DNA of 64,000 nucleotides from Candidatus Adlerbacteria bacterium RIFOXYC1_FULL_48_26 (GTDB taxonomy: Bacteria > Patescibacteriota > Minisyncoccia > Phycocordibacterales > SBAW01), in the NCBI GenBank assembly GCA_001773575.1, contig MEXB01000004.1:10217-74216 (forward strand), written 5' to 3'. The position numbers and the translations under genes were made by a program. The notes beneath the pieces are model-generated. The model was not told where the DNA came from, made no database searches, and saw nothing but the letters and a program-made list of their open reading frames with translations. Shown piece by piece: positions 47,414-63,448 of the stretch (position 1 is the stretch's first letter; each line of letters starts with the position of its first letter).

Positions 47414-48190
47414 TCAGCTAGCGTTTGTGTTTCCAAAGGGATTTTTCCCCTTAGCTGTCGCTTTCTCTTCCGGCCAATGGGCGGAAAGGGGAAGCGGTTT
47501 TCCGTAATGTTCGCAGAGTTTCCTGAGCCCAACAAGCATCTGTCGCTCGACTTCGTCCGTGGGCCCGAATTCGAGAAGAGATTCCATCCGGTCCCGGGCA
47601 TGGTTGACACTGCTGTAGCCTCGGAAATTCAAGGCCTTCGCAACTGCTTCAATAGTGCAGTGTGCGTACCGTGTCATAAAGTAGGCTACCACTTGGCGAG
47701 GCCGGGAAATTTCTTGCGCACGGCTTTTGCTGAGAAGCTCGGAGGGCTTCATCTCAAAAATCGTCGCAGCCGTCTCCACGATCTCCTTGAGAGGCAGCCT
47801 CTTTAATATATCCACCTCCGCCACGGACGATGGAAGGGGGAAGCTTGTCCTGATGGCGGGGTGGCTCGTGCGTGGAGCGCTGTCTCGCAGCTGTAGATTT
47901 TTCTGCCGAGCCTCCGCCTCGGCCTTCTCCTTGGCTATCCGCTCAGCGCGAACGTTCGGGTTTTCGTGCCCGCCGCCAACATATGGCGGCATAACAGCCT
48001 GCGGCCGCAGAGACCGCAGAAGATCCAAACCCGTCACGCCCTTAGTGTCTTTCGACTTATCTTGCGGTGAGGACATGAGAAGTCTCCCAAGTTGTACCAA
48101 CTGACACCACAATACTGTCGCGCCCCAATTTTGCAATAGGGGATTTGTCTTGGAAAAAAATTCCAACATGCTATGGTGAACCACGGACAA
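47414..48190 (-). CDS. DnaA C-terminal-domain (HTH) containing protein
   Basis: C-terminal SRAQEISRPRQVVAYFMTRYAHCTIEAVAKALNFRGYSSVNHARDRM matches DnaA domain IV. High-GC region. The real start is probably an internal Met around 48076. Confidence 0.5.
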   Translation of the reverse strand: MSVVHHSMLEFFSKTNPLLQNWGATVLWCQLVQLGRLLMSSPQDKSKDTKGVTGLDLLRSLRPQAVMPPYVGGGHENPNVRAERIAKEKAEAEARQKNLQLRDSAPRTSHPAIRTSFPLPSSVAEVDILKRLPLKEIVETAATIFEMKPSELLSKSRAQEISRPRQVVAYFMTRYAHCTIEAVAKALNFRGYSSVNHARDRMESLLEFGPTDEVERQMLVGLRKLCEHYGKPLPLSAHWPEEKATAKGKNPFGNTNAS

Positions 48191-48204
48191 CGTTGAGGTG
48201 CAGA

Positions 48205-48492
48205 ATGCAGATACTAGCAGGAGACCGCTTCTTCGAGATTCTCATGGACCTCGCCCGTGAGCGGCAAGAGTCCGACATGCTCGAAGGTCTGGAAAAGGAG
48301 GGCTTTGAACATAAGCTCTTCCAGTCCAAACGCATGGACTCGCTCGGTTCCGTACAGTTTGTGATGGCGCTCGAAGATCGGCTCGAGAAGGAGCTTGGGC
48401 GAAGGATTGAGTTTTCCATGACGAACCTGTCCTATGAGCAGTCCGTTCTGGAACTTTACGCGGCAACCAACCAATTGCTGGGGCAGACATAA
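48205..48492 (+). CDS. Stand-alone acyl/peptidyl carrier protein-like
   Basis: KRMDSLGSVQFVMALEDRLEKELG resembles the phosphopantetheine-attachment DSL motif. RBS gaggtg before the ATG at 48205; the track ORF begins at 48145. Confidence 0.45.
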   Translation: MQILAGDRFFEILMDLARERQESDMLEGLEKEGFEHKLFQSKRMDSLGSVQFVMALEDRLEKELGRRIEFSMTNLSYEQSVLELYAATNQLLGQT

Positions 48493-48610
48493 AGAGGCTT
48501 AACCGCCTCTTTTCTTTTTCCCTAAAAATATGTGGATTTGTTTTCGCGGAATCCTCAGTTATAGTTTTGGAAGATAGCGTAGAGTACCGCAGCAACTCCC
48601 ACGGAGGGTA

Positions 48611-49015
48611 GTGATGCCGTTTGAAAATATGCCATCTCCGAATTTGCCGAACAAAGCATTTTTTCTCTTGAGAGAGGTCGTCCGAGGAGGAACAATCTGC
48701 TTCGATTCTTCCGACGAGACCTGCACCAAGAAGGAGGAGAGGACAGAAGGTCTGACGCGCACACGCAAGAAGGTGCTCGGGCTTACCGTTAACCGGACCG
48801 TATTCGGCCGCGAAGCCTTCAATGAACTGCTTGTGCGCGGAATCGTCACTGAAGAAGGCGACCTCGCCGACGGCATGCTCGAAGTCTATAAGGGCATCGC
48901 CAACGCTCCTTCGCCTGGAAGTAAGTGCCGTCTCGTCGACGTTTCAAGGTTCATTTACCTCGACACAGGCGTCTCTGAGGCATTCGCAGCAGCTCCGGCA
49001 CTTGCCGCCGACTAG
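48611..49015 (+). CDS. Hypothetical protein
   Basis: ORF with its own rho-independent terminator at 49036-49066. Confidence 0.45.
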   Translation: MMPFENMPSPNLPNKAFFLLREVVRGGTICFDSSDETCTKKEERTEGLTRTRKKVLGLTVNRTVFGREAFNELLVRGIVTEEGDLADGMLEVYKGIANAPSPGSKCRLVDVSRFIYLDTGVSEAFAAAPALAAD

Positions 49016-49035
49016 GCATCGGCAGGACACTACAC

Positions 49036-49066
49036 TAAACGCGGCCACAAGCCGCGTTTTTCTTTT
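49036..49066 (+). terminator. Rho-independent terminator
   Basis: aaacgcggc-cacaa-gccgcgtttttctttt. Confidence 0.7.
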
Positions 49067-49092
49067 CCCATTTATTTATGCGAACCTTACTG

Positions 49093-49177
49093 CGGAGGAG
49101 GTGAGATTCGAACTCACGGTACCTTGCGGCACTCCTGTTTTCAAGACAGGTGCGATAGACCACTCTGCCACTCCTCC
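49093..49177 (-). tRNA. tRNA-Ser (anticodon UGA)
   Basis: Acceptor GGAGGAG/CTCCTCC plus G73, anticodon loop CUUGAAA, long variable arm GTGCCGCAAGGTAC, T-loop GTTCGAATC. Confidence 0.8.
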
Positions 49178-49348
49178 AATGCAGAACACAATACACTTTT
49201 TCTGGTTATTGCGCTAGAAAAGGTTCCTGACACCATACCACTTGACGGATACAGTCCGTTTTGTGTGAAGTCTTAAAGATGTTGGTAAGTTGGCCTAAAA
49301 CTAGCTGCTTTTTTAAAGGCCCACTGCTATACTGACCTTAGCGATATT

Positions 49349-50368
49349 ATGGACAAAAAAACTTATCGAACATTGGACTTATTTGCAGGTATAGGAGGAG
49401 TAAGGATGGGTTTTGAACGTGCTGGGTTTGAGACAATCTTTGGAAATGATTTTGATGCATACTGCAAGGTAACCTACGATTTAAACTTTAAAGACACTCC
49501 ACTGGTGGTCGCTGATATAGCGAAAATTAAAAGCGCGGATCTCCCAGACTTCGACATATTGCTCGGTGGGTTTCCATGCCAACCATTTTCAGTTGCTGGG
49601 TATAGAAGAGGTTTCCTAGATACAGGACGAGGGGATCTGTTTTTTGAAATCATAAGAATTTTACGCGACAAGAAACCACGCGCTGTCTTCTTGGAAAATG
49701 TAAAGAATTTGAGTTCGCATGATAAAGGAAGGACCTTCAATATCATTTCCGAGGCATTAGAGGATCTTGGTTATCATGTAACAACAAAAGTTCTTAACAG
49801 CATGAAGTATGGAAATGTTCCTCAGAATAGGGAGCGTGTATATATTGTCGGATTCAAGTCGAAGAAAGCGCTAGAAGCTTTTGAATTTCCAAAACCTGTT
49901 GAATTAACGAAAACTGTTAACGCTCTACTCGAGAAAGAAGTTGAAGAGAAATACTACTACAACAAATCCCCACTCTATAAAGTACTAAAGGAGTCAATGA
50001 CATCTAAGGAGGTTGTCTACCAGTGGCGTAGGAAATATGTTCGTGCAAACAAGAGCGGGGTGTGCCCAACCTTGACTGCAAACATGGGAATGGGTGGACA
50101 TAACGTCCCACTGATCAAAGATCATAAGGGTATTCGAAAACTAACTCCAAGAGAATGTGCAAGAATTCAAGGATTTCCTGAGAATTACAAGCTTCCTAAG
50201 AATCTTCCCGATACCAAGCTTTACAAACAGTTTGGAAACTCGGTTACCGTCACTGTTATCGAGCGCGTTGCCAAACAGATAAAGAAAGCGCTAGACTCAG
50301 GGAACAACGATGTTGTTTCTAGAGCACCAGCCAAAAGAGCAGGTAGAGTGCTACAACCGACTGCTTAA
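49349..50368 (+). CDS. DNA (cytosine-5)-methyltransferase, HaeIII/NgoPII-like
   Basis: m5C motifs I (LDLFAGIGG), IV (GFPCQPFS), VI (ENVKNL), VIII (QNRERVYIVG) and X (GNSV). The C-terminus RKLTPRECARIQGFPENY...GNSV closely resembles M.HaeIII. Low GC, about 37-40% by eye. Confidence 0.9.
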   Translation: MDKKTYRTLDLFAGIGGVRMGFERAGFETIFGNDFDAYCKVTYDLNFKDTPLVVADIAKIKSADLPDFDILLGGFPCQPFSVAGYRRGFLDTGRGDLFFEIIRILRDKKPRAVFLENVKNLSSHDKGRTFNIISEALEDLGYHVTTKVLNSMKYGNVPQNRERVYIVGFKSKKALEAFEFPKPVELTKTVNALLEKEVEEKYYYNKSPLYKVLKESMTSKEVVYQWRRKYVRANKSGVCPTLTANMGMGGHNVPLIKDHKGIRKLTPRECARIQGFPENYKLPKNLPDTKLYKQFGNSVTVTVIERVAKQIKKALDSGNNDVVSRAPAKRAGRVLQPTA

Positions 50369-51491
50369 GGCTGTCGGGTCTTTGTCCAAGCTATTTTCTG
50401 AGGCGCCAGAACCATATTTGGCTTATAGGGCGGCTGAAAATTTATTTTGTAAGGCTTTTATAGCCGAGAATCTTTCTCGTTCTGATGCCTCAGCTGACGC
50501 CTCCAAAGACAGGGTGGGGATTGGTCTCAAGACCTTTCTTAATGGGAATGGTCGTAGTCTGCAAAAAGTGGCAGAATTTAACAACGATTTAAATCTTTTT
50601 AGATCACTCGGACCTGAAGACATGGTCAGGAAAGTGGCCGAGTTGCGAAATGAACGCTTGGAGACAACGAAACGCATCTACAATCTTGATAAAATAATAT
50701 ATCACTGTGTCACTCGTACAGTTGGGAAGATGCTCGTGTACGAGACTCCGGCACATCCGATAGATATCGAGACTATAAAAAACGTAGAGGTTTCGCCTAG
50801 AGGAAATACCATCACATTTTCAGACTCTCTCGAGGAATATTCCTTCAGTATTTCCAAGAGCACGCTTTCTAAGCGTTTTGTGACTCCAGAAAAGGTGCTT
50901 CTTGAGCTTCCGGTGAGGATTGTTTCAGATCCTTTCGAAGAAGTGGAAAAGTTGATCACGGAAGCTGGGCCTATTTTCGCACCAATAAAAGTTCAGCCTC
51001 ATGTTTTCCTCCCTCTCTATTCTATGAGAGGAGAGAAGCGTGTTCCGGAAAGTAGTGGCTTGAACCAATGGAATGCTCGTGGACGGAAGAGAAATCCTGA
51101 TGAGGTATATATTCCAATCCCTGCCTGGGTCCACAAAAAATTTTCAAAGTTCTTTCCTGCGACCAACGATGAGGTATTTAATCTGACCTTACCAGATAGA
51201 ACTGTGTTGAGCGCTAGTATGTGCCAAGAAAACAGGAAGGCTTTGATGAGTAACCCCAACACCGTCCTTGGAAAATGGATTTTGCGCGATGTTATGAATC
51301 TCGGAGAAGGGGAGCTCGCTACCTACGAAAAATTGCAAACGATGGGCGTAGACAGTGTGGTCGTTTATAAAGTGGATAGTGAAAATTACGATATAGATTT
51401 TGCTCCCGTAGGTTCTTACGAGAAATTTCTAGAGGAAAACAATAAACCTACTGAAGGGGCGGAAGATTATCTGGACGAAGAGGGGGAATAA
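50310..51491 (+). CDS. Putative type II restriction endonuclease (partner of the m5C methyltransferase)
   Basis: Overlaps the methyltransferase 3' end by 59 nt and shares its low GC. No motif recognised; call is by operon context only. Confidence 0.45.
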   Translation: MLFLEHQPKEQVECYNRLLKAVGSLSKLFSEAPEPYLAYRAAENLFCKAFIAENLSRSDASADASKDRVGIGLKTFLNGNGRSLQKVAEFNNDLNLFRSLGPEDMVRKVAELRNERLETTKRIYNLDKIIYHCVTRTVGKMLVYETPAHPIDIETIKNVEVSPRGNTITFSDSLEEYSFSISKSTLSKRFVTPEKVLLELPVRIVSDPFEEVEKLITEAGPIFAPIKVQPHVFLPLYSMRGEKRVPESSGLNQWNARGRKRNPDEVYIPIPAWVHKKFSKFFPATNDEVFNLTLPDRTVLSASMCQENRKALMSNPNTVLGKWILRDVMNLGEGELATYEKLQTMGVDSVVVYKVDSENYDIDFAPVGSYEKFLEENNKPTEGAEDYLDEEGE

Positions 51492-51539
51492 GAAAGTTTG
51501 TACATACTGAGCTTTGCGCTATGCTCAAGGCAACCCACT

Positions 51540-53030
51540 ATGGTTATCTCCAAGACGGTCTTCCAACACTACCTTCAGTGTCCAAAGAATACTTGGCTGA
51601 AAATACATAAGCCCGAATTGAAAGAGGAGTTTGTGTTCTCGGAGTTCGACCTGCATCTCATGGAGCAGGGGAATGAAGTAGAGTCGTATGCGCGGTATTT
51701 ATTTCCCAAAGGGATAGAAGTTTCAAGTGTGGGTGAACATGCAGTCGAAGACACTCTTCGTCTTATGGCTGAGCGCACGCCTGTGCTTTTCCAAGCAACG
51801 TTTATAGCTGAAGATTTTATTGTTCGTAACGACATGTTGAAATGGAACCCAGAAACTAGCCTCTGGGATCTCTACGAAGTTAAGGGAACGAACTCCCTAA
51901 AGCTTGATCAGAAGGAACGTGATCACGTCACAGATGTTGCCTTCCAGGTTTCGGTGATGCGTCGTGCTCATGTGCCACTAGGGAAGTGCTATCTGGTTCA
52001 TTTAAATAAAGAATATATACGCGCTGGAGAGTTAGATACAGAAGCATTGTTTACAGTAGATGATGTGACTGATGCTGTTGAAGGGCGTATACCTGAAATA
52101 GAGCCAAAAATGGCAGCCGCAATGGAGTATTTAAATCGTGAATCAGAACCATCTGGTGGATGCGACTGTGTATATGCAACGCGCCGTAATCACTGCTCCA
52201 CTTTTCAGTATTCCAACGCGCACATACCTGAATATTCAGTTCACGATATTTCGCGGATTCATAAAACTAAACTCGAGAATCTGGTTGAACAGAAGATCTA
52301 TGCGATTGATGATGTCGACCCAGAATTTCACAAGCTCTCTGAAAAACAGACAAGCCAAGTACGTGCACATCAGCTGCAAAAATCAGTTATCGATACTAAC
52401 GCTATAAAAAATGAACTAAGCGAGTTGAAATTTCCACTGTATTTCTTCGACTATGAGGCATATGCGCCAGCGATACCTGCATTCAATGGGTATGGTCCAT
52501 ATAAGTTCATTCCATTTCAGTTTTCTATACATATTCTGCGTGAACCTGATGGAAAGCTTGAGCATGTAGAGTTTTTACATACAGAATTTTCAGACCCATC
52601 TGAAGCTGTTGCTCAAAAGTTACAAGAGGTATATTCCGGCGGGTCGGTAATTGTTTGGCATGAGACATTTGAAAAGACGTTTATAAATGAAAATATTGCA
52701 AAACGCTTACCTCATCACGCAGGTTTTTTTAAGGAATTTAACAGCGCAATGTTTGATCTTGAGAAGATCTTTTTAGCTCAGCACTACATTCACCATGGTT
52801 TTAGAGGCCGTACTTCTATAAAGAAAGTTTTGCCAGTAATAGCTCCTGAATTCTCATACGCAGATCTTAATATTCATGAAGGTGGCCAAGCATCAAATGA
52901 ATGGTGGAGGATGGTTGGTCCTACAAGTCTCCCAGAAGAGAGAAAAGAAATTGCTAAAAATTTGAAAGAATACTGCGGCTTAGATACTGAAGCCATGTAC
53001 GTTATCTGGAAACATTTGATGGAACTTTAA
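51540..53030 (+). CDS. DUF2779-family protein: N-terminal PD-(D/E)xK (Cas4/RecB-like, Cys cluster) nuclease plus C-terminal DEDD-like exonuclease domain
   Basis: N-terminal signature ISKTVFQHYLQCPKNTWL. D..YEVK motif, Cys cluster GGCDCVYATRRNHC, and C-terminal FFDYEAY ... CGLDTEAMYVIW. Start at the internal ATG; the track ORF begins at 51498. Confidence 0.55.
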   Translation: MVISKTVFQHYLQCPKNTWLKIHKPELKEEFVFSEFDLHLMEQGNEVESYARYLFPKGIEVSSVGEHAVEDTLRLMAERTPVLFQATFIAEDFIVRNDMLKWNPETSLWDLYEVKGTNSLKLDQKERDHVTDVAFQVSVMRRAHVPLGKCYLVHLNKEYIRAGELDTEALFTVDDVTDAVEGRIPEIEPKMAAAMEYLNRESEPSGGCDCVYATRRNHCSTFQYSNAHIPEYSVHDISRIHKTKLENLVEQKIYAIDDVDPEFHKLSEKQTSQVRAHQLQKSVIDTNAIKNELSELKFPLYFFDYEAYAPAIPAFNGYGPYKFIPFQFSIHILREPDGKLEHVEFLHTEFSDPSEAVAQKLQEVYSGGSVIVWHETFEKTFINENIAKRLPHHAGFFKEFNSAMFDLEKIFLAQHYIHHGFRGRTSIKKVLPVIAPEFSYADLNIHEGGQASNEWWRMVGPTSLPEERKEIAKNLKEYCGLDTEAMYVIWKHLMEL

Positions 53031-53068
53031 AAGTTTTCCTTCCTATCTAAATACGCTATATTCAACCT

Positions 53069-53509
53069 ATGAAGTATTTGGGTATTGATTATGGAACCAG
53101 GCGCATAGGGGTGGCGGTGTCGGATGAGTCGGCGACGCTTGCTTTTCCTTTGGGGGTGGTTGGAAATAGCCCCTCGACTGCGCTCGGGGCACTTAAAGAG
53201 GTCTGTGATATCGCGAAGGAGAATGCGGTGGTGCAGGTGGTGATGGGGGAGTCGAAGGATTATAGCGGCGTGGCGAACCCTGTTATGAAAGAAGTTGAGA
53301 AATTTAAAGCAGCACTTGAAGCAGAAGGGTTAGATGTGGTGTACGAGCCAGAATATATGAGCAGTATGGCTGCGGCCCGCCAGTTTGCTCCGGAGGAAAA
53401 GTCTCGCAAGGCGAACCCAAACCAGGAACTGTTGGACGCATCGGCTGCAGCACTTATCCTCCAAAACTTTTTGGATCGAAACAGAAAACGCGAATTTGAA
53501 GTAGAGTAG
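53069..53509 (+). CDS. ruvX: Holliday junction resolvase-like RuvX/YqgF
   Basis: MKYLGIDYGTRRIGVAVSD.. RNase H-like fold. Confidence 0.85.
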   Translation: MKYLGIDYGTRRIGVAVSDESATLAFPLGVVGNSPSTALGALKEVCDIAKENAVVQVVMGESKDYSGVANPVMKEVEKFKAALEAEGLDVVYEPEYMSSMAAARQFAPEEKSRKANPNQELLDASAAALILQNFLDRNRKREFEVE

Positions 53510-62995: not shown

Positions 62996-63448
62996 ATGGC
63001 AAAGAAACCAAAAGAAAAACTAGAAGAATTCGCCTTTATGGTGACGCGCTCAGTAGGCTCTATTGGGTCTATTATTGTGCACAGCGTCCTTTTTTTGTCG
63101 GCATTTACATCCGTATGGTTAGGGCTTGTTCCGTTCGAGAGTATGCTGCTGTTCCTTACAACCATCGTGTCACTTGAGGCAATCTACCTTTCTATTTTTA
63201 TTCAGATGACCATCAACTATCAGGCAGAGGACATTGATGAGATTCAGGAAGACATCGACGAAATCCAAGAGGACGTGGATGAAATTCAAGAAGACGTTGA
63301 TGAGATCCAAGAGGACGTCGACGAAATCCAGGAAGATGTCGAGGAAATGACAGAGGAAGAAAAGGAAGGTAAGCAAGACAAAACGCTCGAAGAAATTCAA
63401 AAAGACCTACACAAACTTATCGGTGATATTGGTAAGCTACAAAAATAA
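62996..63448 (+). CDS. Two-TM membrane protein (DUF1003-like) with C-terminal E-D-[IV]-D-E-I-Q heptad repeats
   Basis: Two TM helices, then six 21-nt tandem repeats encoding EDIDEIQ-like heptads. Confidence 0.5.
   Translation: MAKKPKEKLEEFAFMVTRSVGSIGSIIVHSVLFLSAFTSVWLGLVPFESMLLFLTTIVSLEAIYLSIFIQMTINYQAEDIDEIQEDIDEIQEDVDEIQEDVDEIQEDVDEIQEDVEEMTEEEKEGKQDKTLEEIQKDLHKLIGDIGKLQK
63227..63352 (+). repeat. Six imperfect 21-nt tandem repeats (gaRgaYRtYgaYgaRatYcaR)
   Basis: Units begin at 63227, 63248, 63269, 63290, 63311 and 63332. Variation is almost entirely at synonymous positions. Confidence 0.8.

What the first reader, a model, noticed from the sequence alone, without database searches (positions are those of the whole stretch)
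51540..53030. DUF2779 nuclease/exonuclease fusion immediately downstream of the R-M pair
The N-terminus carries the DUF2779 signature (...QCPKNTWL...) and a Cas4/RecB-like PD-(D/E)xK core (DLYEVK, QxxxY-like, Cys cluster CDC...C). The C-terminal half has DEDD-like exonuclease motifs (FFDYEAY ... WHETFEKTF ... CGLDTEAMYV). This uncharacterised family sits in a low-GC block next to an R-M system. The placement suggests a role in defence (degrading cleaved invader DNA) or in DNA processing linked to the acquired element. Experimental function is, to my knowledge, undefined.
Basis: partly seen in the sequence, partly recalled or inferred. Interest (0 to 1): 0.6.

Follow-up and report, generated by a model that had tools for sequence, protein, structure and literature searches.

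The report
Two-headed nuclease riding a restriction cassette
The gene encodes an intact but uncharacterised enzyme with two different DNA-cutting heads; it arrived with a restriction-modification pair in a swap-prone genome slot, and relatives sit behind or are fused to many other anti-phage systems, so it is probably a shared helper that destroys DNA those systems have cut.

Summary
The ORF is real (51540-53030, +, 496 aa) and all quoted motifs are present. One label is wrong: Pfam's DUF2779 model covers the C-terminal half (residues 301-426), not the N-terminus. The N-half is a Cas4/RecB-like PD-(D/E)xK nuclease (D98/E113/K115 plus a Cys cluster). The C-half is a DEDDy-type 3'-5' exonuclease fold (D304/E306/E378/Y478/D482). 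This architecture is already published (2014, 2026); the function is untested.

New here:
- M+R+DUF2779 form one low-GC cassette (~49179-53034). It lies in a tRNA-Ser/ruvX hotspot where four related genomes carry four other R-M systems and no DUF2779.
- In 27 of 74 species-level loci, R-M or defence genes of more than 10 classes lie within three genes upstream, usually on the same strand and often only a few nt away, against 5 of 77 downstream.
- Partners swap between near-identical nucleases.
- Homologues occur on 31 plasmids and in none of 50,697 phage genomes.

Best reading: an ancillary DNA-end nuclease acting on both strand polarities that serves DNA-targeting defence systems. Housekeeping contexts also exist (dnaG-rpoD operons; quasi-essential in JCVI-syn3.0). 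Interest 0.6.

The parts
49092..49177 (-). tRNA-Ser(tga). This is the left landmark of the variable slot. It is inverted relative to related genomes, where the R-M slot begins at its 3' end.
   Evidence: ARAGORN. It is 100% identical to L106 5615-5701 but in the opposite orientation.
49179..53034 (+). Variable low-GC cassette consisting of M + R + DUF2779. It has no DNA homology to four syntenic relatives.
   Evidence: Homology to L105-L108 stops at the tRNA-Ser (49091-49178) and resumes at 53035-53051. GC is 0.41-0.44 against flanks of 0.51-0.57. Relatives carry other R-M systems in this slot.
49349..50368 (+). C5 cytosine DNA methyltransferase (Type II M). Public gene calls start it at 49406.
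   Evidence: Pfam DNA_methylase E=3.6e-95, full length; TIGR00675 dcm E=4e-102; PADLOC MTase_II E=3e-129.
50310..51491 (+). Type II restriction endonuclease with a NgoFVII-type C-terminal B3-like DNA-binding domain. It overlaps M by 59 nt.
   Evidence: PADLOC REase_II PDLC03479 residues 12-376 of 376, E=6e-95; Pfam RE_NgoFVII_C E=2e-12.
51540..53030 (+). DUF2779-family dual nuclease, 496 aa. It starts 48 nt after the REase stop. No terminator-like site was found between them or after the gene on the + strand.
51540..52229 (+). N-terminal Cas4/RecB-like PD-(D/E)xK nuclease domain (aa 1-230). Catalytic residues are D98, E113 and K115, with conserved D132/Q136. Cys14, Cys208, Cys210 and Cys219 are the putative Fe-S ligands.
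   Evidence: Invariant columns; PADLOC Cas4 E=4.7e-4 over aa 1-176; Foldseek MGME1 5zyv E=8e-4 and Cas4 4r5q E=9e-4, prob 1.00.
52230..52424 (+). Helical linker (aa 231-295).
   Evidence: DSSP on the AF2 model shows helices 242-250, 268-279 and 286-293.
52425..53027 (+). C-terminal DEDDy-type 3'-5' exonuclease-fold domain (aa 296-496). It contains the Pfam DUF2779 match (aa 301-426). Conserved residues are D304, E306, E378, D406, Y478 and D482.
   Evidence: Pfam PF11074, 111 bits; invariant residues; domain model pLDDT 97.9; Foldseek ERI2, TREX2, 3'hExo, MAEL and PolB exonuclease domains.
53069..53509 (+). ruvX (YqgF). This is the first gene of the conserved backbone and the right landmark of the hotspot. 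It is not part of the cassette.
   Evidence: Pfam RuvX E=1.6e-26. It is syntenic in L105-L108 at 79-85% DNA identity. RuvX is a neighbour of DUF2779 in only 2 of 147 immediate-neighbour genes.

Best explanation
The gene encodes an intact two-headed DNA nuclease of the DUF2779 family. The N-terminal half is a Cas4/AddB-like, probably iron-sulfur-containing, PD-(D/E)xK nuclease. Characterised relatives of that kind act at DNA ends, mainly 5'->3' on single strands. The C-terminal half is a DEDDy (proofreading-type) 3'->5' exonuclease.

In this genome it is the third gene of a horizontally acquired M-R-nuclease cassette. The cassette is inserted in a hotspot between tRNA-Ser and ruvX where related genomes carry other R-M systems.

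Shown computationally: gene integrity, the two catalytic sites, the folds, cassette membership, recurrent directional linkage to diverse defence systems, and fusions. Inferred: the polarities, the Fe-S cluster, the substrate, and cooperation with the R enzyme.

The same enzyme family also appears to serve as a general DNA-end processing nuclease in some small-genome bacteria. The defence role is therefore best seen as recruitment of a general-purpose enzyme.
For: Enzyme.
- D98, D304, E306, E378, D406, Y478 and D482 are invariant, and E113/K115 are 98% conserved, in 103 sequences at 32-78% identity to the query.
- AF2 pLDDT is 97.0 for the full protein and 97.9 for the C-domain.
- Foldseek matches the N-half to MGME1 and Cas4, and the C-half to ERI2, TREX2, 3'hExo and PolB editing domains.
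- Independent published HHpred analysis of a homologue agrees (PMC13621843; PMC3985635).

Cassette.
- The three genes share low GC.
- Homology to four syntenic relatives ends at the tRNA-Ser and resumes 5-21 nt after the DUF2779 stop.
- Those relatives carry Type I, C5+MutH-like, C5+EcoO109I and C5+Vsr+YgjP systems in the slot, and no DUF2779.

Family-wide linkage.
- 27 of 74 loci have a recognised R-M or defence gene at -1 to -3, against 5 of 77 at +1 to +3.
- Unbiased Pfam set scans count DNA-MTase family members as 18 of 136 upstream, 4 of 145 downstream (Fisher p=0.0014), and none with two or more members at distal positions.
- Proteins of at least 1000 aa occupy position -1 in 12 of 74 loci against 20 of 995 elsewhere (p=4e-7). 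Most are on the same strand with gaps of -16 to +17 nt.
- Partners match PADLOC PDC-S06, PDC-S37/Hhe, MzaE, IetA and DrmD, and Pfam Type I, IIG, III and IV R-M families.
- Close relatives (67-81% identity) sit by Alw26I-like, AlwI, Type III-like and Type I systems.
- Partners swap between nucleases that are 76-91% identical.
- 31 plasmids and 0 of 50,697 phage genomes carry the family. Plasmid copies follow Qat, IetA-like, PD-(D/E)XK/WYL and NERD/ATPase genes.

Precedent. UvrD-Cas4 occurs with Type III R-M or Dcm-Vsr, and solo-Cas4 next to R-M in DPANN archaea (PMC5704561). ACE1, a Cas4-family enzyme, boosts Argonaute immunity (PMC12094033).
Against: - No experiment exists for any family member.
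- About 60% of surveyed loci have no recognised defence neighbour, and several are clearly housekeeping: dnaG-rpoD-DUF2779 in L051 and L075 (the same genes downstream on the opposite strand in L061; RpoD beside the gene in 5 of 147 immediate neighbours) and DsbA neighbours.
- The Mycoplasma homologue is quasi-essential in a phage-free minimal cell.
- The protein matches no PADLOC defence model beyond a weak Cas4 hit.
- The window cassette has no helicase, so processive degradation of duplex DNA is not obviously provided for.
- Adjacency could reflect co-residence in defence islands rather than cooperation.
- My positional profile used seeds chosen from upstream genes and is biased, although searches are not.
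- The loci are the 80 best matches to this protein (plus the window and two further relatives), not a random sample of the family.
- Foldseek E-values for the C-domain are modest (5e-3 or weaker).
- The fourth Fe-S cysteine is only 51% conserved.
Confidence: 0.5

Rival explanations
1. It is a housekeeping DNA-repair or recombination nuclease (end resection, flap or gap processing) that merely happens to be cargo in variable islands. It has no functional tie to the neighbouring R-M system.
For: The JCVI-syn3.0 homologue is quasi-essential. An M. bovis transposon mutant is listed among growth-deficient mutants. dnaG-rpoD-DUF2779 operons and DsbA or RuvX neighbours exist. The family is very large and well conserved. 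MGME1, the top fold match, is a genome-maintenance enzyme.
Confidence: 0.2
2. It is a host-protective partner. It resects self-inflicted double-strand breaks made by the R-M or defence system so that RecA can repair the chromosome (restriction alleviation or autoimmunity repair), rather than destroying invader DNA.
For: The biochemistry would be the same as in the main model. RecBCD/AddAB play this dual role in model bacteria (established knowledge). The cassette abuts ruvX, and a RuvA gene lies upstream in the same region. The association is mainly with DNA-cleaving systems.
Against: ruvX belongs to the conserved backbone and is not a recurrent neighbour (2 of 147). There is no recA, recO or recR linkage in the neighbour scans. 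Sequence data cannot separate this from the main model.
Confidence: 0.12
3. [not shown]
Against: In the window the partner is a complete Type II R-M system that needs no extra effector. Several partners already carry their own nuclease domains: MTES_1575, PLD, HNH, HsdR. Many copies are solo or in housekeeping operons, which is hard to reconcile with a toxic effector.
Confidence: 0.1
4. It is a mobile-element function: an exonuclease used by the island or plasmid for its own recombination, replication or integration, analogous to phage Exo/RecE-type enzymes.
For: Large serine recombinases lie within 10 kb in 15 of 81 loci and are the top family at positions +/-6 and 7. The family is present on 31 plasmids, with transposases or integrases nearby in several. 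About 40 IMG/VR contigs carry it.
Against: None of 50,697 reference phage genomes carries it. The window cassette has no recombinase. Linkage is to defence genes at positions -1 to -3 and not to recombinases, which never occupy +/-2.
Confidence: 0.06
5. It is a CRISPR-type Cas4 working in spacer acquisition.
For: There is weak Cas4 profile similarity and a Cas4 fold match. The Pfam Cas4 model recognises one fusion relative.
Against: The window has no CRISPR array. No cas1 or cas2 appears among neighbours here or in the neighbour scans.
Confidence: 0.01

Closest known systems
DUF2779/PF11074 family proteins, e.g. MMSYN1_0389 of JCVI-syn3.0 and Ureaplasma UU173-type proteins
   Same: Same family and same collinear architecture: a Cas4-like PD-(D/E)xK half plus a DEDDy half with conserved D/E/K and D-E-E-D-Y residues.
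   Different: The window protein scores far below the NCBIfam UU173 subfamily cut-off (44.5 vs 225 bits). It is about 500 aa, while the UU173 profile is 650 positions long. It retains the Cys cluster that MMSYN1_0389 has partly lost. It is encoded in an R-M cassette rather than as a quasi-essential chromosomal gene.
Cas4 (Pcal_0546 4R5Q, SSO0001 4IC1) and the AddB/RecB nuclease domains
   Same: PD-(D/E)xK core with a D...ExK triad, an N-terminal Cys plus a C-terminal Cys group, and fold similarity.
   Different: No cas1/cas2 or CRISPR context. The Cys spacing is C-x-C-x8-C with a weakly conserved fourth Cys. It is fused to a second, unrelated exonuclease. It has no helicase.
MGME1 (human mitochondrial genome maintenance exonuclease 1)
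   Same: It is the best structural match of the N-half (5zyv, E=8e-4, TM 0.56 on the target). Both are RecB-type nucleases acting on DNA ends.
   Different: Only 10% sequence identity. MGME1 is eukaryotic, has a single domain and has no DEDD partner domain.
UvrD-Cas4 fusion proteins and solo-Cas4 next to R-M systems (Hudaiberdiev et al. 2017, PMC5704561)
   Same: A Cas4-like nuclease is proposed as an ancillary component of Type III R-M, Dcm-Vsr and other defence loci, and it also occurs stand-alone.
   Different: Those belong to pfam12705 or Cas4 proper and are joined to an SF1 helicase. Here the fusion partner is a DEDDy exonuclease, and the partner range is much wider: Types I, II, IIS, IIG, III and IV, Hhe, Mza, PDC-S06, Qat.
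ACE1, the Argonaute-associated Cas4-family enzyme (PMC12094033)
   Same: It is an experimentally shown case of a Cas4-family nuclease acting as an accessory that enhances a DNA-targeting immune system.
   Different: ACE1 is a single-domain ssDNA endonuclease that forms a heterodimer with one specific partner (pAgo) and trims guides. DUF2779 has two nuclease domains and many alternative partners.
AddAB / RecBCD helicase-nucleases
   Same: Two nuclease activities of opposite polarity acting at one DNA end. One of them is an Fe-S RecB-type domain (AddB-like). The role of degrading restricted DNA is established knowledge for RecBCD.
   Different: There is no motor domain. The second nuclease is DEDDy rather than a second RecB-type domain. 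There is no evidence of Chi regulation.
COG2251 / TM0106-type proteins (PF13482 RNase_H_2 + DUF83) and Cas2-DEDDh fusions
   Same: They are parallel combinations of a Cas4-like or CRISPR adaptation protein with an RNase H-fold 3'-5' exonuclease (Cas2-DEDDh from general knowledge).
   Different: They use different exonuclease families and different domain orders. COG2251 often carries AAA domains. Their contexts were not examined here.

Membership tests
Pfam PF11074 (DUF2779) family | Match to the family HMM above the curated gathering score | tested here: met
   111.3 bits against a cut-off of 23.3, E=4.7e-32, profile positions 1-126 of 126 on residues 301-426.
Pfam PF11074 (DUF2779) family | Full-length collinearity with family members (N-terminal nuclease + linker + C-terminal domain, about 490 aa) | tested here: met
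   Most of the 120 listed hits cover 99-100% of the query, all of them with PF11074. Representatives align over residues 1-3 to 493-496. A 103-sequence alignment was built.
NCBIfam NF045869 UU173 subfamily | Score above the subfamily cut-off | tested here: not met
   44.5 bits against a cut-off of 225, and only the C-terminal part aligns.
Cas4 / RecB-like PD-(D/E)xK nucleases | Catalytic D...(D/E)xK triad | tested here: met
   D98 is 100% conserved; E113 and K115 are 98%.
Cas4 / RecB-like PD-(D/E)xK nucleases | Four-cysteine Fe-S cluster (one N-terminal plus three C-terminal Cys) | tested here: inconclusive
   C14 is 87% conserved, C210 90%, C219 88%, and C208 only 51%. The spacing C-x-C-x8-C differs from the Cas4 pattern as I recall it. 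Cluster binding cannot be tested in silico.
Cas4 / RecB-like PD-(D/E)xK nucleases | Recognition by a Cas4 sequence profile | tested here: inconclusive
   No Pfam Cas4 hit at E<=0.01. PADLOC Cas4 gives E=4.7e-4 over aa 1-176. Pfam PF01930 is recorded for the fusion relative P0487.
Cas4 / RecB-like PD-(D/E)xK nucleases | Fold similarity to solved Cas4/RecB-type nucleases | tested here: met
   Foldseek: Cas4 4r5q E=9.4e-4, prob 1.00, TM 0.50 on the target; MGME1 5zyv E=8.4e-4.
CRISPR-associated Cas4 (adaptation module) | Genomic association with cas1/cas2 and a CRISPR array | tested here: not met
   No CRISPR-like repeat array in the 64 kb window. No cas genes in the neighbourhood.
DEDD(y) 3'-5' exonuclease superfamily | ExoI D-x-E, ExoII acidic residue, ExoIII Y-x3-D | tested here: met
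   D304-x-E306; E378 (Glu rather than Asp, in W-H-E-T-F-E); Y478-x3-D482. All are 100% conserved, as is an extra residue, D406. The ExoII assignment is by motif analogy, not by superposition.
DEDD(y) 3'-5' exonuclease superfamily | RNase H-like fold matching solved DEDD exonucleases | tested here: met
   With the domain model (pLDDT 97.9), the top hits are all DEDD-fold proteins: ERI2 7n8v, TREX2 6a46, 3'hExo 1zbh (prob 0.98-0.99, TM 0.45) and ASFV PolB exonuclease (TMq 0.54-0.58). E-values are modest, 5e-3 or weaker. Active-site distances could not be measured because no coordinates were available.
DEDD(y) 3'-5' exonuclease superfamily | Metal-dependent 3'-5' exonuclease activity | not testable with these tools
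   Requires biochemistry.
AddAB/RecBCD-type helicase-nuclease | SF1 helicase motor in the same protein or operon | tested here: not met
   No helicase domain in the protein or in the window cassette. Helicases are partners in other loci only.
Type II restriction-modification system (the cassette's first two genes) | Adjacent cognate-type MTase and REase genes, both full length | tested here: met
   C5 MTase covers Pfam positions 1-324 of 324. The REase covers PADLOC REase_II positions 12-376 of 376. The genes overlap by 59 nt. Recognition sequence and activity were not tested.
Catalogued anti-phage defence system component (PADLOC-DB v2.0) | Match to a defence-system protein model | tested here: not met
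   Only the weak Cas4 hit was found. No system in PADLOC v2.0 includes a DUF2779 model.

The most novel reading that the evidence does not exclude
Probability: 0.4. Interest if true: 0.75.

Novelty: new variant of a known kind. Interest (0 to 1): 0.6.

Why it matters
R-M systems are usually treated as self-sufficient two-gene units. What happens to restricted DNA afterwards has mostly been studied in bacteria with RecBCD.

A portable double exonuclease that travels with, swaps between and fuses to more than ten mechanistically different defence systems would define a new class of shared accessory module. It would explain part of the 'dark matter' in defence islands. It would also assign a testable function to a 7,000-cluster family that includes a quasi-essential gene of the minimal cell JCVI-syn3.0.

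The window offers a minimal three-gene cassette (3.9 kb) that could be cloned and tested directly. The tRNA-Ser/ruvX slot is a clean natural example of an R-M swapping hotspot in Patescibacteria.

Tried and rejected
- Sequence and profile searches of PDB chains found nothing meaningful: adenylate kinase and NUNM hits at E>0.1. The family therefore has no solved member.
- The promoter/terminator scan of the cassette was no better than shuffled sequence and gave no signal separating R from DUF2779.
- No flanking direct or inverted repeats mark the cassette ends.
- RuvX as a functional partner was rejected. It is conserved backbone and neighbours DUF2779 in only 2 of 147 cases.
- A single conserved partner gene was rejected. 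No neighbour cluster besides DUF2779 itself exceeds 15 of 81 loci, and that one (a serine recombinase) never lies within +/-2 genes.
- A CRISPR-adaptation role was rejected, since there is no array and no cas genes.
- An 'anchor core gene next to a hotspot' model was rejected for the window, because the gene is missing from the slot in four syntenic relatives. It may hold for L015/L017, where the downstream flank is conserved and only the upstream partner differs.
- My seeded jackhmmer positional profile is biased, because the seeds came from upstream genes. I therefore rely on the unbiased Pfam set scans and the size statistic.
- A literature search for RecBCD/AddAB absence in Patescibacteria returned nothing usable, so that part of the rationale is inference only.
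- Active-site geometry could not be measured, because model coordinates are not exposed.
Full report
1. THE OBSERVATION

The ORF is real. The ORF listing gives 51498-53030 (+). The internal ATG at 51540 yields 496 aa, which is the start used by public gene calls on 16 contigs and by full-length homologues.

Pfam assigns PF11074 (DUF2779) at E=4.7e-32, but to residues 301-426. The window matches Candidatus Adlerbacteria assemblies: P0029 is 100% identical over its length.

The two upstream genes are a complete Type II R-M pair. The first is a C5 methyltransferase (Pfam 1-324 of 324; PADLOC MTase_II E=3e-129). The second is a REase that matches PADLOC REase_II PDLC03479 end to end (E=6e-95) and carries a NgoFVII-type C-terminal B3-like domain.

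2. WHAT THE PROTEIN IS

A 103-sequence alignment (32-78% identity to the query) has these invariant residues: D98, D304, E306, P313, E378, D406, Y478 and D482. Near-invariant residues include E113, K115, D132, Q136, C210 and C479.

The N-half therefore has a PD-(D/E)xK triad: D98 ... E113-x-K115. It also has a Cys group: C14 87%, C208 51%, C210 90%, C219 88%.

The C-half has a DEDDy-like set: D304-x-E306, E378 (Glu where DnaQ-like enzymes have the ExoII Asp), and Y478-x3-D482.

AlphaFold2 with this alignment gives pLDDT 97.0 and pTM 0.92 for the whole protein, and 97.9 for residues 283-496 alone.
- Foldseek against the PDB places the N-half with MGME1 and Cas4 Pcal_0546 (E about 9e-4, prob 1.00).
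- It places the C-half exclusively among DEDD-fold proteins: ERI2, TREX2, 3'hExo, MAEL and family-B polymerase editing domains. Probabilities are 0.97-0.99, TM is 0.41-0.58, and E-values are modest.
- No family member has a solved structure detectable by sequence.

The architecture is not new. Majorek et al. 2014 placed DUF2779 in the 3'-5' exonuclease clade and noted its co-occurrence with DUF83/Cas4 (PMC3985635). A 2026 paper analysed the JCVI-syn3.0 homologue MMSYN1_0389 (quasi-essential) as a Cas4-like + DEDDy fusion (PMC13621843). Only 7 papers in the library mention DUF2779, and none tests its function or analyses its genomic context.

3. THE LOCAL CONTEXT

M, R and DUF2779 are among the lowest-GC genes of the window (0.413, 0.439 and 0.413, against a mean of 0.474, sd 0.03). 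They lie between high-GC flanks: 0.55-0.57 on the left and ruvX at 0.512 on the right.

I looked up genomes whose RuvX is 84-94% identical. All keep the backbone ruvX - tRNA_bind - VTT - DUF2127 - pilin - PLDc_2 - Nramp - PseudoU - L19. L106 also keeps the left-hand backbone: RuvA, S20, a response regulator and the DnaA_C-like gene. The slot just upstream of ruvX differs in every one:
- L105: Type I HsdM/HsdS/PIN/HsdR
- L106: C5 MTase + MutH-like
- L107: C5 MTase + EcoO109I
- L108: C5 MTase + Vsr + ... + YgjP

None has DUF2779 there.

DNA homology to these relatives stops at the tRNA-Ser(tga) gene (49091-49178) and resumes at 53035-53051, which is 5-21 nt after the DUF2779 stop codon. The variable cassette is therefore about 49179-53034 and consists of exactly M + R + DUF2779.

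In the relatives the slot begins at the 3' end of tRNA-Ser on the + strand. In the window the same tRNA (100% identical to L106's) is inverted.

No terminator-like site separates R from DUF2779, and the gap is 48 nt. The signal scan as a whole was uninformative.

4. FAMILY-WIDE CONTEXT

I fetched 80 species-level loci (34-81% identity; Patescibacteria, Flavobacteriaceae, Hyphomicrobium, Gammaproteobacteria, Acidobacteriota and others) and added the window, L001 and L004. After calling genes I indexed neighbours by position in the 81 loci where the focal gene was recovered.

There is no universal partner, but there is a strong directional pattern.
- Position -1 holds proteins of at least 1000 aa in 12 of 74 loci, against 20 of 995 at other positions (Fisher p=3.7e-7). 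Most are on the same strand with gaps of -16 to +17 nt.
- Annotation of these and of the -2/-3 genes shows the following partners:
  - SF1 helicase + MTES_1575 endonuclease: L011, L015 and L022 annotated; L039 and L073 assigned by homology
  - SNF2: L012, L032, L045
  - PLD-SNF2: L081
  - Type III-like N6_N4 Mod + ResIII: L016, L029, L043, L065
  - ResIII alone: L017
  - MmeI-type IIG + HARE-HTH/PD-(D/E)xK: L054
  - Type I HsdR + YgjP: L067
  - GmrSD Type IV: L066
  - AIPR + HNH: L079
  - AAA_13: L028, L044
  - C5 MTase + TPR-PIN: L050
- PADLOC identifies partners as PDC-S06 (3e-140), PDC-S37/Hhe (5e-290 / 7e-150), MzaE (2e-65), IetA (3e-40) and DrmD/HKD-Snf2.
- At locus level, 27 of 74 loci have such a gene at -1 to -3, against 5 of 77 at +1 to +3.

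Because my seeds came from upstream genes, I ran unbiased Pfam scans of equal-sized sets.
- Upstream -2/-3 is led by N6_N4_Mtase (8), GmrSD_N (5), ResIII (5), SWI2_SNF2 (5), C5 methylase (3), Eco57I (3), EcoRI_methylase (2) and D12 (2).
- Downstream +2/+3 has 2+2 MTases among otherwise housekeeping families.
- Distal +/-6 and 7 has no MTase family with two or more members. It is led by large serine recombinases (6 of 147).
- MTase-family members are 18 of 136 upstream against 4 of 145 downstream, p=0.0014. One fused MTase may be counted twice.

5. MOBILITY AND PARTNER SWAPPING

The closest relatives (67-81% identity) sit by different systems:
- Alw26I-like R-M upstream (P0008)
- SNF2 + Mod + Res upstream, with a 25-nt gap (P0001)
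- D12 MTase + AlwI immediately downstream (P0026)
- HsdR + YgjP 2-3 kb upstream (P0030)
- none (P0027, P0028)

Nearest-neighbour nucleases usually have different partners. L079 (AIPR+HNH) and L081 (PLD-SNF2) are 91% identical, come from different genera, and share no other gene within 10 kb. The window, L001 and L010 (about 80%) share no flank. L015 and L017 keep the downstream flank but swap the upstream partner.

The family is on 31 plasmids (29-35% identity) and in none of 50,697 reference phage genomes. About 40 of 2.9 million IMG/VR contigs carry it.

Annotated plasmid contexts repeat the pattern:
- QatA-like / QatC / TatD, then DUF2779 after 1 nt, then an AAA protein and a dGTPase (A. 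cryaerophilus)
- IetA-like ATPase - DUF2779 - WYL - PLD - helicase (Rhodoferax)
- helicase - MzaB-like ATPase - DUF2779 - PLD (Planktothrix)
- PD-(D/E)XK - DUF2779 - WYL (A. butzleri)
- NERD - ATPase - phosphoesterase - DUF2779 (Selenomonas)

6. FUSIONS

One such fusion lies between an MmeI/Eco57I-type enzyme and DUF4268-HRDC-HamA-DEAD helicase (Hachiman). Fusion to a defence-type NTPase argues that the adjacency reflects cooperation and not just co-residence.

7. MECHANISM

Shown in silico:
- an intact enzyme with two complete and different nuclease sites
- membership of an acquired R-M cassette
- recurrent linkage, mostly on the same strand and often tightly spaced, and fusion to DNA-targeting defence machinery, much of which consists of translocases or helicases

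Inferred from family knowledge:
- The Cas4/AddB/MGME1-type half acts at DNA ends, mainly 5'->3' on ssDNA.
- The DEDDy half acts 3'->5'.

Together they could degrade both strands from an end created by the REase, or strands unwound by a partner helicase. This is a motor-less analogue of the AddAB nuclease pair.

I put 0.5 on this ancillary 'finisher' role. Rivals:
- pure housekeeping repair nuclease: 0.2
- host-protective resection of self-inflicted breaks: 0.12
- sensor-activated effector: 0.1
- mobile-element exonuclease: 0.06
- CRISPR-type Cas4: 0.01 (no array)

Counter-evidence is real. About 60% of loci lack a recognised defence neighbour. dnaG-rpoD-DUF2779 operons exist. The Mycoplasma homologue is quasi-essential. 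I therefore regard the family as a general DNA-end nuclease that is frequently recruited by defence systems.

8. COMPARISON AND NOVELTY

The gene is a bona fide member of PF11074. It is not of the UU173 subfamily. It is not a CRISPR Cas4. It is not in PADLOC v2.0.

I rate it a new variant of a known kind, interest 0.6.

Noticed in passing
window 48154-49178; L105 843-928; L106 5615-5701: tRNA-Ser(tga) is 100% identical to that of relative L106 but inverted. The ~940 nt to its left (two small high-GC ORFs at 48205-48492 and 48614-49015) has no counterpart in L106. In the relatives the variable R-M slot starts at the tRNA's 3' end, so the window appears to have undergone a local inversion or rearrangement at the integration site.
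   Followed up: partly
window 49179-53034 vs L105 1135-7917, L106 5711-7898, L107 1065-3244, L108 237-4480: The tRNA-Ser/ruvX interval is an R-M swapping hotspot. Five related Patescibacteria genomes carry five different R-M systems (Type II NgoFVII-like, Type I with a PIN gene, C5+MutH-like, C5+EcoO109I, C5+Vsr+YgjP) on an otherwise syntenic backbone.
   Followed up: yes
L010-L089, positions about +/-3 to 10 genes from DUF2779 (e.g. L074 6022-7320, L043 13247-14758): Large serine recombinases (Resolvase+Recombinase+Zn_ribbon_recom) lie within 10 kb of DUF2779 in 15 of 81 loci. They are the most frequent family at positions +/-6 and 7 but never occur at +/-2. This suggests that many of these islands are recombinase-bounded mobile elements.
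   Followed up: partly
L029 11505-12635, L012 12405-13712, L058 6927-8033, L066 15085-15990, L077 14910-16244: A 300-445 aa protein family with no Pfam match recurs 1-3 genes downstream of DUF2779 on the same strand. It is mostly seen in loci with a defence partner upstream, so it may be a further uncharacterised module component.
   Followed up: no
window 52974-52976 (Cys479) and 52161-52163 (Cys208): Cys479, adjacent to the catalytic Tyr478 of the exonuclease domain, is 99% conserved. The expected fourth Fe-S ligand, Cys208, is only 51% conserved. The metal cluster may be ligated differently from Cas4, possibly across domains. This could not be checked without model coordinates.
   Followed up: no
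[not shown]
   Followed up: partly
L079 10001-11452 vs L081 10001-11458: The DUF2779 proteins of Winogradskyella and Tenacibaculum are 91% identical, yet no other gene within +/-10 kb is shared. This indicates recent horizontal transfer of the nuclease gene alone or between islands.
   Followed up: partly
window 50310-51030 (REase residues 1-240): Only the C-terminal B3-like DNA-binding domain of the restriction enzyme has a Pfam match. The N-terminal, presumably catalytic, ~240 aa are unassigned in Pfam, although the whole protein matches a PADLOC Type II REase model.
   Followed up: no
window 47414-48190 (-): A 258-aa protein consists of little more than a DnaA C-terminal helix-turn-helix domain (Bac_DnaA_C, E=1.6e-11). 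It is conserved at the same position in relatives (L106). It is a stand-alone DnaA-domain-IV protein of unknown role next to the hotspot.
   Followed up: no
window 63226-63372: A 21-nt tandem repeat (at least 5-7 units) encodes an acidic heptad-like repeat (EDIDEIQ-type). It is the only short-spaced direct repeat family in the window and is not a CRISPR array.
   Followed up: no
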